Assembly: GCF_988243305.1 (NCBI RefSeq) | Contig: NZ_OZ547136.1 | DNA: 64,000 nt | Direction: 5' to 3' (one strand) | In this document: piece by piece, positions 11,567 through 15,071 of the stretch | Numbering within the stretch: the stretch's first letter is position 1 | Layout: each line of letters starts with the position of its first letter | Position numbers and translations under genes: made by a program | The notes under the pieces: generated by a model | What the model was told of the DNA's origin: nothing | Databases searched by the model: none | What the model saw: only the letters and a program-made list of their open reading frames with translations

Positions 11567-11692
11567 CATTATTAGTGCATCACGTAATTAAAAAATTGTT
11601 ATGCCCAAACATATAATTAATATACATTGCCAAATGAGTTGTTTATTAAGTTTATATTATATAATTAAAATCTATGGAATGGGTATAATCAT

Positions 11693-13696
11693 ATGGGTGA
11701 CATTATATATTTACGCATTACAGGGGAGCAACAAGGGGATATTTCTGCAGGATGCGGGACGCAAGCCTCTGTCGGGAATCGGTATCAACAGGGACATGAG
11801 GATGAAATATTTGTTTTTAGTTTTCATGGAGGAGTAAGTAACACAGGATTTGGCATTAATCATCAAACGATACAATTTTGTAAAATTCTCGATAAAAGCT
11901 CACCGCTGCTGATGAATTGCATTAATAATAACGAACGATGCCGTTTTGAGTTTTATTTTTATCGTATTAATAAATATGGAAAATGGGAAAGGTATTATTA
12001 TATTGAAGTCCGTGGTGCCACGTTAACTCAGAATCAGATTATAATAAAAGAAAATGAACTTGACTATCAATATATAACAATACACTACGAATATATCTAC
12101 TGTAAGCATCTTACAGCCAATACAGAATTTAGTTATTTACTCACACCTGAAAATTATAATCGCCTTTTCCCACCGACGCTCTTACCTGTTGAGGAAAAAC
12201 CAGAAATACCGCCTGAACGAGAAATTATCCTCACCATTGGTGTATTCTTTGATGGCACAGGAAACAATTTAACCAATACGAATTTACGTATGAGTTTTTT
12301 CCAACCAGAAACCTATGGTCTGGATGTCCAGGATTTGGCCTCGTTTAATAAACAATGTATGAGCAAGCAGGGTAAAACGGGATCCGGAGTACAGAGCTAT
12401 TTGAATTACTATACGAATATTCATTGGTTGAATGAGTTGTATCATAAAGATTCAGAAATAAATGCGGGGTCAGTAAAAATTCAACGTGAAATTTATATTG
12501 AAGGAATAGGGACTGAAAATAATAAAGCAGACTCTCTGATAGGAATGGGGTTAGGAAATAATGATACAGGGGTAATTGCCAAAACTGACCGTGCGATATC
12601 ACTGCTCCGTGAAAAACTGACGGAGATTGTTATTTCTTTAAAAGAGAATAAATTAGTAATTAAGTGTCTACAGTTTGACGTATTTGGCTTTAGTCGTGGG
12701 GCAGCAGCCGCACGGCACTTTACTAATCGCGTATTTGAGTGTGATCCCGTACTGATTAAAACCATTACGACGGCATTTCAGTCAGTTGAATATTTAGGTA
12801 AACCTTCCGGGGAAGTGCAATTTTTAGGTATTTTTGACACAGTTGCAGCCATCGGAGGGCTGATGGATGGTTTTGACCCTCATGATGGTAATAACTTTCC
12901 GGTAAAAGTGAAGTTACCGCCAGGTGTGGCCAAACATGTATTCCAGCTCACAGCAATGAACGAATGTCGCTATAACTTTTGCCTCAACAGCATAAAGGAA
13001 AGCTGGCCAGAATTAAGTTTCCCTGGATCTCATGCTGATATTGGTGGCGGCTATGACCCACTGGAAGATGAGTACCTGTTTTTAAGTCGCCCGGCGATTG
13101 CAACGGTACTGGGAAATGTGCCGGTGGAAGCGACAAGCGCTTACCAAAAAGCAGCACAGCAGGCAGAGTTATTGTGGCGCTATTCGACGCTGGCTCCGAT
13201 TCTGCCTTCTGGTGTCCTAAAAATTGAATCCAATATTGATGAAATAGCGTCGCCTGACCACTTAGGTAATGTGAGAAAACGGGTCGCTGCAGCGGTGACA
13301 TTTCGCAGAACGATCACCAATGACTGGTCAAAGATTGCGTTAAGAGTAATGTATGAAGTCGCTAAAGAGGCAGGGGTAGTATTTGATGCCATTTCTGTTG
13401 CTGATAAGGAATTAAAAGTTCCCAGTCATTTAAAGGTAATATGTGAAAAAGCAATTTCTCAGGGTAAAGCCGTTCTCTTGTGTACAGCGCCGATACCTTT
13501 TTCTGATGATGAGCTTAAAACCATTGGAAAATATATACACTGCTCTTCCAACTGGAATACCGTCGATTATCGATTAAAAAATAAGGTGTCTGCTGAAGTA
13601 TCAGCGTTTAAGACGTTTAGTTTTGTTAATCGGCCGGATGAAAATTGGACCAGAACTATATACGATATGCAAGGGAATAAACAAAATGGAATTTAA
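11693..13696 (+). CDS. Hcp-domain / DUF2235 (Tle1-like phospholipase) fusion protein, putative T6SS-delivered effector
   Basis: 667-aa ORF. Residues 1-~150 align with Hcp (IYLRITGEQQGDISAGCG...GHEDE...SPLLMNCI); FFDGTGN at residues 185-191; GFSRG (GxSxG) with Ser334; FDTVAAIG and HADIGGGY motifs; AT-rich relative to flanks. Confidence 0.8.
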   Translation: MGDIIYLRITGEQQGDISAGCGTQASVGNRYQQGHEDEIFVFSFHGGVSNTGFGINHQTIQFCKILDKSSPLLMNCINNNERCRFEFYFYRINKYGKWERYYYIEVRGATLTQNQIIIKENELDYQYITIHYEYIYCKHLTANTEFSYLLTPENYNRLFPPTLLPVEEKPEIPPEREIILTIGVFFDGTGNNLTNTNLRMSFFQPETYGLDVQDLASFNKQCMSKQGKTGSGVQSYLNYYTNIHWLNELYHKDSEINAGSVKIQREIYIEGIGTENNKADSLIGMGLGNNDTGVIAKTDRAISLLREKLTEIVISLKENKLVIKCLQFDVFGFSRGAAAARHFTNRVFECDPVLIKTITTAFQSVEYLGKPSGEVQFLGIFDTVAAIGGLMDGFDPHDGNNFPVKVKLPPGVAKHVFQLTAMNECRYNFCLNSIKESWPELSFPGSHADIGGGYDPLEDEYLFLSRPAIATVLGNVPVEATSAYQKAAQQAELLWRYSTLAPILPSGVLKIESNIDEIASPDHLGNVRKRVAAAVTFRRTITNDWSKIALRVMYEVAKEAGVVFDAISVADKELKVPSHLKVICEKAISQGKAVLLCTAPIPFSDDELKTIGKYIHCSSNWNTVDYRLKNKVSAEVSAFKTFSFVNRPDENWTRTIYDMQGNKQNGI

Positions 13697-14345
13697 TATA
13701 AAATTACTGTTTGTTATTACGTCTATGGTTCTTAACTTTAACGCAGCAGCGAAAGAAAAAATATCGTTGCTTGCACCCTATGATGAGTGGTATTTCAATT
13801 TTTTCTACCCTGATTCCCTACCAGCAAAAGTTACCTATGTGGAATTATTAGATACCGATGGCATCTATTATCAGTTCAGAACGCTGGCCAGTACTAATGC
13901 CAGTCCAGGAAGTGTTGGACAATGGAGCGAGAAAGTATCAGGGATGTCGTCAGTTTTTAATAAAGCCAAAAACCCACCAATGTCTATCCATTTTTGCTGG
14001 GATTCAGTGATTGATAAAAAAGTGTATGAAACCTGGATAACGCTGGCGGGAGACGTCTGGAAATTGATGCTCACACCTTATTCACCACCAGGCGATGGCA
14101 GTGAAAAATATTATCTACAGTATCTGTTAATCGGACTGGCTCCGGAAGGAAAAGTACGGGTATGGCTTGATAAACGTGACAAACCCAATATTCGCCTGAC
14201 GGATAAGCAGATTCTGATAGAAACGTTTTCAGGTGAAAAAATGGAAATGTGTAAAGGAATTTCCCGGCATGATTTTTCTCTTGGAGACGATGAATATGTT
14301 CTTGAGTTTATCAAAGATAAAAAATATCCCTATGGTAACTGGTAA
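13686..14345 (+). CDS. putative periplasmic immunity protein, copy 1 (219 aa, signal peptide)
   Basis: Start overlaps effector stop by 11 bp; cleavable signal peptide without lipobox; paralogue of next gene. Confidence 0.6.
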   Translation: MEFNIKLLFVITSMVLNFNAAAKEKISLLAPYDEWYFNFFYPDSLPAKVTYVELLDTDGIYYQFRTLASTNASPGSVGQWSEKVSGMSSVFNKAKNPPMSIHFCWDSVIDKKVYETWITLAGDVWKLMLTPYSPPGDGSEKYYLQYLLIGLAPEGKVRVWLDKRDKPNIRLTDKQILIETFSGEKMEMCKGISRHDFSLGDDEYVLEFIKDKKYPYGNW

Positions 14346-14351
14346 GTAACA

Positions 14352-15020
14352 ATGAAAATAATAGCTAAAATAATTTATAGATTAACCATTGCGTTAATGA
14401 TAGCCGGATCAGTCCAGACAGCAGCGAAAGAAAAAATATCGTTGCTTGCACCCTATGATGAGTGGTATTTCCTTTTTTTCTACCCTAATGCGCTACCGGC
14501 ACGAGTTACCTATGTAGAACTATTGGACACTGATGGTATCTATTATCAGTTCAGAACGCTGGATGCTACCGCTCCGAGTTCCACAACTATTGATCAATGG
14601 AGAGATAATCTTCGGGTTGGGGTGTTATCATTCAATAAAGCTAAAAATCCCCCTATGTCTATCCATTTCTGCTGGGATTCAGTGATTGATAAAAAAGTGT
14701 ATGAAACCTGGATCACGCTGGCGGGAAAAGTCTGGAAATTGATGCTAACACCTTATTCACCACCAGGTGGTGGCAGTGAAAAGTATTATCTGCGGTATCT
14801 GTTAATCGGGCTGGCTCCGGAAGGGAAAATAGGAGTGTGGCTGGAGAAACCTGATAAACCCAATATTCGCCTGACCGATAAGCAGATTCTGATAGAAACG
14901 GTTTCAGGTGAAAAAATGGAAATGTGTAAAGGCCGAAGTGTCTATAAAAATGGGTATTCTTACCCGGAAAGTACAAAAAACTTTATCAAAGATAAAAAAT
15001 ATCCCTATGGCAACTGGTAG
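14352..15020 (+). CDS. putative periplasmic immunity protein, copy 2 (222 aa, signal peptide)
   Basis: Tandem paralogue of 13686-14345 with long identical peptide blocks (KEKISLLAPYDEWYF; KAKNPPMSIHFCWDSVIDKKVYETWITLAG) and divergent middle and C-terminus. Confidence 0.6.
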   Translation: MKIIAKIIYRLTIALMIAGSVQTAAKEKISLLAPYDEWYFLFFYPNALPARVTYVELLDTDGIYYQFRTLDATAPSSTTIDQWRDNLRVGVLSFNKAKNPPMSIHFCWDSVIDKKVYETWITLAGKVWKLMLTPYSPPGGGSEKYYLRYLLIGLAPEGKIGVWLEKPDKPNIRLTDKQILIETVSGEKMEMCKGRSVYKNGYSYPESTKNFIKDKKYPYGNW

Positions 15021-15071
15021 TTAACCAGTTGCACAATTTCTTAAAGAGGCACGGAAAAGCATTTTTGTGGG

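What the first reader, a model, noticed from the sequence alone, without database searches (positions are those of the whole stretch)
13100..13696. C-terminal ~200 residues of the effector have no motif I can recognise
Downstream of the lipase motifs the protein continues for about 200 residues (from ...LFLSRPAIATVLGNV... to the end) without recognisable catalytic or transmembrane signatures. In Tle1-type enzymes the C-terminal region is implicated in membrane association or substrate access; in a Hcp fusion it could alternatively serve as a targeting or immunity-binding module.
Basis: inference. Interest (0 to 1): 0.4.

Follow-up and report, generated by a model that had tools for sequence, protein, structure and literature searches.

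The report
Known C-terminal module of Tle1-type phospholipase
The unrecognised last 200 residues are the accessory module that all enteroaggregative-E. coli-type Tle1 type VI secretion phospholipases carry after their catalytic domain; it is already seen in a solved structure, so the finding is largely ordinary.

Summary
Residues 470-667 of the 667-aa Hcp-Tle1 fusion (window 11693-13696) lie after the catalytic triad (S334, D382, H447). They match no Pfam or NCBIfam model and have no transmembrane segment.

In all 46 full-length relatives found, the module directly follows the Tle1 catalytic domain, whatever the carrier: Hcp, PAAR, VgrG or none. Downstream DNA was available for four family members (this locus, an Hcp fusion, a VgrG fusion, the Tle1-EAEC locus). 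All four have DUF2931/Tli1 immunity genes.

So it belongs to the toxin cassette and is not a delivery signal. It is a clade-specific accessory module, outside the canonical DUF2235 fold.

Its precise role is inferred, not shown: completing the enzyme, interfacial or substrate access, possibly immunity contact. It has a very conserved Y-x-H-x-S-x-x-W-N motif and one dimorphic recombination cassette (566-611).

Hcp-Tle1 fusions (Hcp-ET2) are published, and 573 of 5,426 complete E. coli genomes carry this locus. Interest is low.

The parts
11693..13696 (+). Whole gene: 667-aa Hcp-Tle1 fusion effector (Hcp-ET2 type)
   Evidence: ORF. RefSeq CDS WP_089646572.1 in a 99.9% identical genome. Pfam Hcp plus PF09994. 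TIGR03344 at E=2e-36.
11693..12142 (+). Hcp (TssD) tube-protein domain, residues 1-150: the delivery carrier
   Evidence: Pfam PF05638 at 6-138. TIGR03344 at 1-149. PDB Hcp hits 3HE1 and 6A2V.
12143..12208 (+). Proline-rich linker, residues 151-172
   Evidence: Sequence. pLDDT below 50 over 136-171.
12209..13054 (+). Tle1-like alpha/beta-hydrolase catalytic domain, residues 173-454, with S334 (12692-12694), D382 (12836-12838) and H447 (13031-13033)
   Evidence: Alignment to Tle1-EAEC. PF09994. pLDDT mostly above 90. Residues checked.
13055..13693 (+). Tle1-EAEC-type C-terminal accessory module, residues 455-667; the finding covers 470-667. Beta-hairpin 457-473, helix 482-494, long beta-hairpin 508-542, helices 545-559, 578-595 and 605-612, then a conserved tail.
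13388..13525 (+). Dimorphic recombination cassette C, residues 566-611 (loop, helix 578-595, helix 605-612)
   Evidence: 28 of the 32 amino-acid differences (31 substitutions, one deletion) in residues 470-667 between the window allele and allele L008 fall here. dS about 1.1 and dN about 0.68, against dS 0.03 in the flanks. The window type is in 560 genomes and the other type in 13.
13529..13561 (+). Most conserved motif of the module, residues 613-623 (K-Y-I-H-C-S-S-N-W-N-T; family consensus Y-I-H-C-S-A-N-W-N). H616, S618 and W621 are invariant in the 45-sequence alignment.
   Evidence: Mean information 3.01 bits, against 2.14 for the catalytic core.
13619..13660 (+). Conserved tail, residues 643-656 (F-V-N-R-P-x-x-x-W-x-R), with P648 invariant and R654 nearly so
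   Evidence: pLDDT here is 86-94 in the full-length model, against 52-85 when the module is modelled alone.
13686..14345 (+). Immunity gene 1 (DUF2931 / Tli1 family, 219 aa, signal peptide). Its start overlaps the toxin stop by 11 nt.
   Evidence: RefSeq CDS. 46% identity to Tli1-EAEC, E=9e-56.
14352..15020 (+). Immunity gene 2 (DUF2931 / Tli1 family, 222 aa from the ATG at 14352; RefSeq annotates it from 14397)

Best explanation
Residues ~455-667 are the clade-specific C-terminal accessory module of Tle1-EAEC-type type VI secretion phospholipases. They form a compact alpha/beta module plus a conserved tail that follows the alpha/beta-hydrolase catalytic domain. Together the two parts make one toxin cassette.

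Shown here:
- The module is homologous to, and superposable on, residues ~325-543 of the solved Tle1-EAEC structure.
- It always sits directly after the catalytic domain, whatever the delivery carrier (none, Hcp, PAAR or VgrG).
- In all four family members for which downstream DNA was available, the cassette is followed by DUF2931/Tli1 immunity genes.
- It carries none of the catalytic triad and has no transmembrane segment.

Inferred, at roughly 50% confidence:
- It is needed for the enzyme to work, not for secretion.
- Its conserved core (helix 545-559, the Y-x-H-x-S-x-x-W-N motif and the F-x-N-R-P...W-x-R tail) packs on the hydrolase core. There it helps form the surface that meets the membrane and admits the phospholipid.
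- Functionally it would take the place that the unrelated D2-D4 'membrane-anchoring' domains hold in P. aeruginosa Tle1.
- Its variable surface (cassette 566-611) is exposed and may be contacted by the periplasmic Tli1-like immunity proteins.

In this protein the Hcp domain replaces the N-terminal VgrG-binding strand of Tle1-EAEC as the delivery device.
For: - Sequence. phmmer of the whole protein hits 6SJL_D at E=6e-123, aligning query 173-661 with chain 30-541. A profile of the C-terminal region alone hits only 6SJL, at E=8e-61. BLASTP to an annotated Tle1-EAEC gives 44% identity over residues 174-664.
- Architecture. A search of 1.84 billion representative proteins with the 198-residue region finds 89 proteins. 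All 46 that are at least 400 aa long have the Tle1 catalytic domain immediately upstream. N-terminal carriers differ: PAAR, Hcp, VgrG, or none, as in Tle1-EAEC. Stand-alone 'C-terminal' ORFs checked so far are fragments of broken alleles at the same locus.
- Immunity. DUF2931 genes follow the Hcp- and VgrG-borne versions. The window's immunity protein is 46% identical to Tli1-EAEC.
- Conservation. M553, H616, S618, W621 and P648 are invariant in the 45-sequence alignment of the module. E460, R539, L550, P577, L580, Y614 and R654 are at least 90% conserved. The motif 613-623 carries 3.01 bits, against 2.14 for the catalytic core.
- Context dependence. The tail gains confidence in the full-length model (versus 55).
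- Literature. [quoted passage not shown] Hcp-ET2, an Hcp-DUF2235 fusion, is a described T6SS effector with Tle1 phospholipase activity (PMC6730261, PMC6099711).
Against: - No coordinates were available, so the contacts between the module and the catalytic domain, and the distance of the conserved motif from S334, were not measured. The packing role rests on conservation and on a pLDDT difference.
- The primary paper on 6SJL (Flaugnatti et al. 2020) and the Hcp-ET paper (Ma et al. 2017) could not be read. A function already assigned to this region there may have been missed.
- The helices are only moderately amphipathic (muH 0.3-0.6) and the module is nearly neutral (pI 7.9). There is no strong sequence signature of membrane binding.
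- The module folds confidently on its own in silico, which would also fit a separable domain with a function of its own.
Confidence: 0.85

Rival explanations
1. The module is mainly the docking surface for the Tli1/DUF2931 immunity proteins, acting as a specificity determinant. Its variable cassette 566-611 would set which immunity paralogue neutralises the toxin.
For: - Cassette 566-611 is a sharply bounded mosaic segment: dN 0.68 and dS about 1.1, against dS 0.03 in the flanks.
- It is dimorphic in E. coli, 560 genomes against 13.
- It also varies between otherwise near-identical Salmonella alleles and among Tle1-EAEC alleles.
- Downstream immunity genes come as arrays of 2-5 mosaic paralogues.
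- The module co-occurred with DUF2931 immunity in all four family members with downstream DNA available.
Against: - Two more mosaic cassettes lie in the catalytic domain (252-266 and 308-319), so variability is not special to the module.
- The allele with the alternative cassette C (L008) has immunity proteins 95% and 97% identical to those next to the common cassette. No matched change is evident in five alleles.
- dN/dS in the cassette is 0.55-0.62, not above 1.
- The most conserved parts of the module cannot be explained by immunity escape.
- No complex model could be made or inspected with these tools.
Confidence: 0.25
2. The module is a membrane-anchoring domain equivalent to D2-D4 of P. 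aeruginosa Tle1. It would tether the lipase to the target's membranes from the periplasm.
For: [quoted passage not shown]
- The position after the catalytic histidine is the same here.
- The module contains amphipathic helices (muH up to 0.55-0.62) and a basic R-K-R / R-R stretch in the long beta-hairpin.
Against: - There is no sequence relationship. The C-terminal profile does not hit 4O5P or 9J3F even at E<=10. The full-length hits to them cover only residues 287-392 and 320-464.
- The module is less than half the size (~210 against ~430 residues) and has no marked hydrophobic or basic character.
Confidence: 0.3
3. The module is a secretion or loading determinant that contacts the T6SS carrier. 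In Tle1-EAEC this would be the gp5 needle or base of VgrG; here it would be the Hcp ring.
For: Apart from the N-terminal strand, Tle1-EAEC makes further contacts with the sides and base of the VgrG gp5-like domain, and VgrG binding inhibits the enzyme (PMC10715212, PMC10433429). Extensions on opposite sides of Tle1-EAEC touch VgrG (PMC9860674).
Against: The same module is kept in effectors carried by Hcp, PAAR or VgrG fusion, or as cargo. It cannot be adapted to one carrier. In this protein delivery is provided covalently by the Hcp domain. The strongly conserved motifs are shared across all carrier types.
Confidence: 0.07
4. The module is a second enzyme or a second active site built on the invariant His616 and Ser618. 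This might explain the dual PLA1/PLA2 activity reported for Tle1-EAEC.
For: H616 and S618 are invariant in 45 sequences, inside the most conserved motif of the whole toxin. Tle1-EAEC shows both PLA1 and, to a lesser extent, PLA2 activity (PMC9860674).
Against: Replacing Ser197 by alanine abolishes the phospholipase activity of Tle1-EAEC (bioRxiv 10.1101/2024.03.05.583533, citing Flaugnatti et al. 2016), which argues for one active site. No hydrolase fold or family is detected in the module. An H-x-S spacing is not a known nucleophile-base arrangement (own knowledge).
Confidence: 0.03

Closest known systems
Tle1-EAEC (EC042_4534), the phospholipase A1/A2 cargo effector of the enteroaggregative E. 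coli T6SS-1; cryo-EM structures 6SJL and 6SKI (Flaugnatti et al. 2020)
   Different: Tle1-EAEC is a 560-aa cargo protein loaded on VgrG through its first ~26-30 residues. Here those residues are replaced by a fused Hcp domain and a proline-rich linker. Tle1-EAEC has a longer loop between the Y-x-H-x-S-x-x-W-N motif and the tail, and about 20 extra C-terminal residues. Its Tli1 is a lipoprotein with an LTGC lipobox, while the window's immunity proteins have signal peptides without a cysteine.
Hcp-ET2 (Hcp fused to a DUF2235/Tle1 toxin) of ETEC strain PE321 (Ma et al. 2017, Virulence; summarised in PMC6730261 and PMC6099711)
   Same: The architecture is the same (Hcp plus a DUF2235 phospholipase followed by immunity genes), and so are the species and the class of T6SS effector.
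   Different: The reference sequence (A31K_02346) was not available, so identity to it was not measured. The reviews read describe only the DUF2235 domain and say nothing about the C-terminal ~200 residues.
P. aeruginosa Tle1 (PA3290; 4O5P) and TleB (9J3F)
   Same: The PF09994-type catalytic domain is related, with weak sequence hits inside residues 287-464 and Foldseek E of 1e-10 to 1e-9 for the whole model. Both have a large extra region after the catalytic domain; in P. aeruginosa Tle1 it is called membrane-anchoring (PMC13133936).
   Different: The regions after the catalytic domain are not detectably related in sequence or fold. Delivery of P. aeruginosa Tle1 uses VgrG4a plus a DUF4123 adaptor (PMC13133936).

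Membership tests
Tle1-EAEC-type T6SS phospholipase toxin cassette (catalytic domain plus C-terminal module) | Full-length sequence homology to Tle1-EAEC, including the region after the catalytic histidine | tested here: met
   E=6e-123 over query 173-661 against chain 30-541. The C-terminal profile alone gives E=8e-61. 44% identity.
Tle1-EAEC-type T6SS phospholipase toxin cassette (catalytic domain plus C-terminal module) | GxSxG nucleophile motif and a Ser-Asp-His triad at the aligned positions | tested here: met
   G332-F-S334-R-G336, D382 and H447 align with S197, D245 and H310 of Tle1-EAEC.
Tle1-EAEC-type T6SS phospholipase toxin cassette (catalytic domain plus C-terminal module) | Three-dimensional fold of the C-terminal module as in 6SJL | tested here: met
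Tle1-EAEC-type T6SS phospholipase toxin cassette (catalytic domain plus C-terminal module) | Cognate Tli1 (DUF2931) immunity gene immediately downstream | tested here: met
   There are two DUF2931 genes. The first is 46% identical to Tli1-EAEC, E=9e-56.
Tle1-EAEC-type T6SS phospholipase toxin cassette (catalytic domain plus C-terminal module) | Phospholipase A1/A2 activity and periplasmic toxicity neutralised by the immunity protein | not testable with these tools
   Requires biochemistry and toxicity assays. Reported for Tle1-EAEC and for Hcp-ET2 in the literature (PMC9860674, PMC6730261).
Hcp-ET (Hcp with C-terminal extension toxin) effectors | N-terminal Hcp/TssD domain fused in one ORF to a toxin domain | tested here: met
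   TIGR03344 at residues 1-149, E=2e-36, above the curated cut-off. Pfam Hcp plus PF09994 in one 667-aa ORF.
Hcp-ET (Hcp with C-terminal extension toxin) effectors | T6SS-dependent secretion | not testable with these tools
   No T6SS cluster was looked for in the window, and secretion needs an experiment.
P. aeruginosa Tle1-type membrane-anchoring module (D2-D4) | Sequence or fold similarity of the post-catalytic region to 4O5P residues 451-882 | tested here: not met
Canonical DUF2235 / PF09994 catalytic domain | The region is covered by the Pfam catalytic-domain model | tested here: not met
   The PF09994 match ends at residue 459, model position 272 of 287. No Pfam match was found in any of 45 C-terminal regions.

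The most novel reading that the evidence does not exclude
The C-terminal module, together with two patches of the catalytic domain, carries exchangeable specificity cassettes. In the module this is residues 566-611, dimorphic in E. coli. These cassettes would be matched by the mosaic arrays of DUF2931 immunity paralogues. The module would then act as the recognition surface in a within-species toxin/immunity arms race, and swapping the cassette would change which immunity paralogue protects.
Probability: 0.2. Interest if true: 0.45.

Novelty: already known. Interest (0 to 1): 0.15.

Why it matters
It matters little as a discovery. The region belongs to a published effector class (Hcp-ET2 / Tle1-EAEC) with a solved structure, and about one complete E. 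coli genome in ten carries this locus.

The useful outcomes are practical:
- The ~210 residues after the PF09994 domain form a well-defined, conserved module that no Pfam or NCBIfam model covers. A family model could be built from the 45-sequence alignment.
- RefSeq names the whole 667-aa toxin 'tube protein TssD', which hides a phospholipase toxin.
- The module's invariant motif and its dimorphic cassette are concrete targets for mutagenesis, to ask what the non-catalytic half of this lipase family does.

Tried and rejected
- The primary papers (Flaugnatti et al. 2020 EMBO J; Ma et al. 2017 Virulence) are not held. A bioRxiv search found no preprint of the former. I had to rely on secondary descriptions.
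- Searching NCBIfam and Pfam for the region alone or as a family gave nothing.
- The word-indexed protein search with the 198-residue region mostly returned fragments. The exhaustive representative search was more informative.
- Apparent stand-alone C-terminal ORFs, such as the 154-aa P0006, looked like a possible orphan module. They proved to be pieces of a broken allele at the same locus.
- Model coordinates are not exposed. I could not measure inter-domain contacts, the distance from the motif to the active site, or attempt a linked toxin-immunity model whose interface could be inspected. I therefore did not spend the second structure job on a fusion construct.
- I considered direct-coupling analysis to infer contacts and rejected it. 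The family has only about 50 diverse full-length sequences in hand and 89 clusters at 50% identity.
- I looked for co-variation between toxin cassettes and immunity alleles. With five alleles there is no clear pairing.
- Several contigs of PAAR-fused relatives were too short to show the immunity gene.

Full report
**What is at the coordinates.** The window is E. coli chromosome. Between ybbP and mnmH/selU lies a low-G+C islet (40%, against about 50% in the flanks). It holds one 667-aa ORF (11693-13696, + strand) and two downstream ORFs. A 99.9% identical complete genome annotates them as 'tssD' plus two 'DUF2931 family' proteins. In total 573 of 5,426 complete E. coli genomes carry the locus. 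Position 13100 is codon 470 and the stop codon is 13694-13696. The quoted peptide begins at residue 462.

- Pfam finds Hcp (6-138) and the Tle1-like catalytic domain PF09994, which ends at residue 459, and nothing after it.
- NCBIfam finds only the Hcp model, and nothing for residues 470-667.
- None of 45 relatives of the region matches a Pfam family.
- There is no transmembrane segment.
- The catalytic residues S334, D382 and H447 all lie upstream. The Tle1-EAEC triad S197/D245/H310 is as given in bioRxiv 10.1101/2024.03.05.583533.

**The region is nevertheless not unknown.**
- The whole protein hits the solved Tle1 effector of enteroaggregative E. coli (6SJL/6SKI) at E=6e-123. The alignment runs from query 173 to 661 and chain 30 to 541, straight through the C-terminal region.
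- A profile of the region alone hits only that protein in the PDB, at E=8e-61, over chain residues 325-543.
- An AlphaFold2 model of the full protein is confident over the toxin part, with pLDDT mostly above 90. Foldseek aligns it to the entire 6sjl chain.
- The module therefore has no other solved relative. In particular it does not resemble the D2-D4 'membrane-anchoring' domains of P. aeruginosa Tle1 (4O5P) or TleB (9J3F). Those two proteins match only inside the catalytic domain.

**Anatomy of the module.** The parts are a beta-hairpin (457-473), a helix (482-494), a long beta-hairpin (508-542), three helices (545-559, 578-595, 605-612), a poorly ordered loop (about 624-642) and a tail (643-660).

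Conservation across 45-54 relatives is uneven:
- Helix 545-559 (L-R-V-M) carries 2.61 bits.
- The motif Y614-I-H616-C-S618-x-x-W621-N carries 3.01 bits, more than the catalytic core average of 2.14.
- The tail F-V-N-R-P648...W-x-R654 carries 2.27 bits.

The tail is predicted with higher confidence in the full-length model than in isolation (versus 55). I take this as a hint, not proof, that it packs on the catalytic domain.

**Distribution.** An exhaustive search of 1.84 billion representative proteins with the 198 residues gives only 89 hits.
- All 46 hits of at least 400 aa have the Tle1 catalytic domain directly upstream.
- What precedes the catalytic domain varies. It can be nothing (cargo proteins of about 500 aa, like Tle1-EAEC), an Hcp domain, a PAAR domain, or a complete VgrG.
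- The listed AFDB50 Foldseek matches of the module are almost all annotated as T6SS or DUF2235 proteins with these same architectures.
- Short 'stand-alone' hits are fragments. The 154-aa P0006 is the distal piece of a broken allele at this very locus.
- Downstream DNA was available for four family members: this locus, the Tle1-EAEC locus, an Hcp fusion and a VgrG fusion. All four have DUF2931 genes. The window's first immunity protein is 46% identical to Tli1-EAEC.

The catalytic domain plus the C-terminal module thus behave as one toxin cassette, paired with Tli1-type immunity and moved between delivery domains.

**Consequences for function.**
- A role in T6SS targeting is unlikely. The module is indifferent to the carrier. 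In Tle1-EAEC the loading determinant is the N-terminal strand that complements the VgrG TTR domain (PMC10715212), and that strand is replaced here by Hcp.
- A second active site is unlikely. The S197A change abolishes Tle1-EAEC activity (bioRxiv 10.1101/2024.03.05.583533), and no hydrolase fold is detected in the module.
- The most economical reading is an accessory module that completes the enzyme. It would stabilise the hydrolase core and shape the interfacial or substrate-access surface. Functionally it would occupy the place of the unrelated membrane-anchoring domains of P. aeruginosa Tle1 (PMC13133936). This step is inference. I could not inspect coordinates or read the structural paper.

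**A side observation bears on the immunity-binding idea.** E. coli alleles of the gene are segmentally mosaic. Three short cassettes are highly diverged: 252-266 and 308-319 in the catalytic domain, and 566-611 in the module. Their dS is 0.3-1.2 and dN 0.5-1.0 where alleles differ, within otherwise nearly identical sequence with dS of 0.01-0.06 for most flanks, though the stretch between cassettes A and B (267-307) reaches 0.1-0.33.

The module's cassette is dimorphic, with the window type in 560 genomes and the alternative in 13. It also differs between near-identical Salmonella alleles and among Tle1-EAEC alleles. The immunity paralogues are mosaic too. This fits an exposed surface under allelic replacement, possibly an immunity contact. 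However, dN/dS is below 1, the catalytic domain has such cassettes as well, and the five alleles examined show no matched change in immunity genes. I keep it as a rival or secondary role.

**Comparison with what is known.** The protein meets every testable criterion for a Tle1-EAEC-type toxin cassette and for the Hcp-ET class. Hcp-ET2, an Hcp-DUF2235 fusion with Tle1 phospholipase activity, was described in 2017 (PMC6730261, PMC6099711). It fails the tests for a P. aeruginosa-type membrane-anchoring module and for being part of the canonical PF09994 domain.

**Verdict.** This is already known biology. Interest is low.

Noticed in passing
window 12446-12490, 12614-12649 and 13388-13525 (residues 252-266, 308-319, 566-611): The Hcp-Tle1 gene is segmentally mosaic among E. 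coli alleles. Three short cassettes have saturated or high dS (0.3-1.2) and dN of 0.5-1.0 inside otherwise near-identical sequence (dS mostly 0.01-0.06; 0.1-0.33 in the stretch between the first two cassettes). The third cassette is dimorphic, in 560 against 13 genomes.
   Followed up: partly
window 13686-15020; loci L006-L008, L015: DUF2931/Tli1-type immunity genes occur as arrays of 2-5 paralogues. These are themselves mosaic, with a variable patch around alignment columns 78-100 and another in the ~20 residues before the conserved C-terminal end. The window's copies have signal peptides without a lipobox cysteine, whereas Tli1-EAEC has LTGC.
   Followed up: partly
loci L002/L003 (same ybbP-mnmH site); hit H30: In some strains the effector gene is broken: split into 437-aa and 154-aa ORFs, or interrupted by an IS1 element. 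The immunity genes remain, so toxin loss with immunity retention occurs at this locus.
   Followed up: partly
window 11693-13696 and 14352-15020: There are two annotation issues in RefSeq. The 667-aa toxin fusion is named only 'type VI secretion system tube protein TssD'. The second immunity gene is annotated from 14397 (207 aa), although the ORF from the ATG at 14352 restores a signal peptide like that of its 222-aa paralogues.
   Followed up: partly
window 13686-13696: The start of the first immunity gene overlaps the end of the toxin gene by 11 nt, which suggests translational coupling.
   Followed up: no
window ~11600-15050: The effector/immunity islet has about 40% G+C against about 50% in the flanks. 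It sits between ybbP and mnmH, the site occupied by rhsD in E. coli K-12 (the latter from my own knowledge). This suggests a hotspot for polymorphic-toxin insertions.
   Followed up: no
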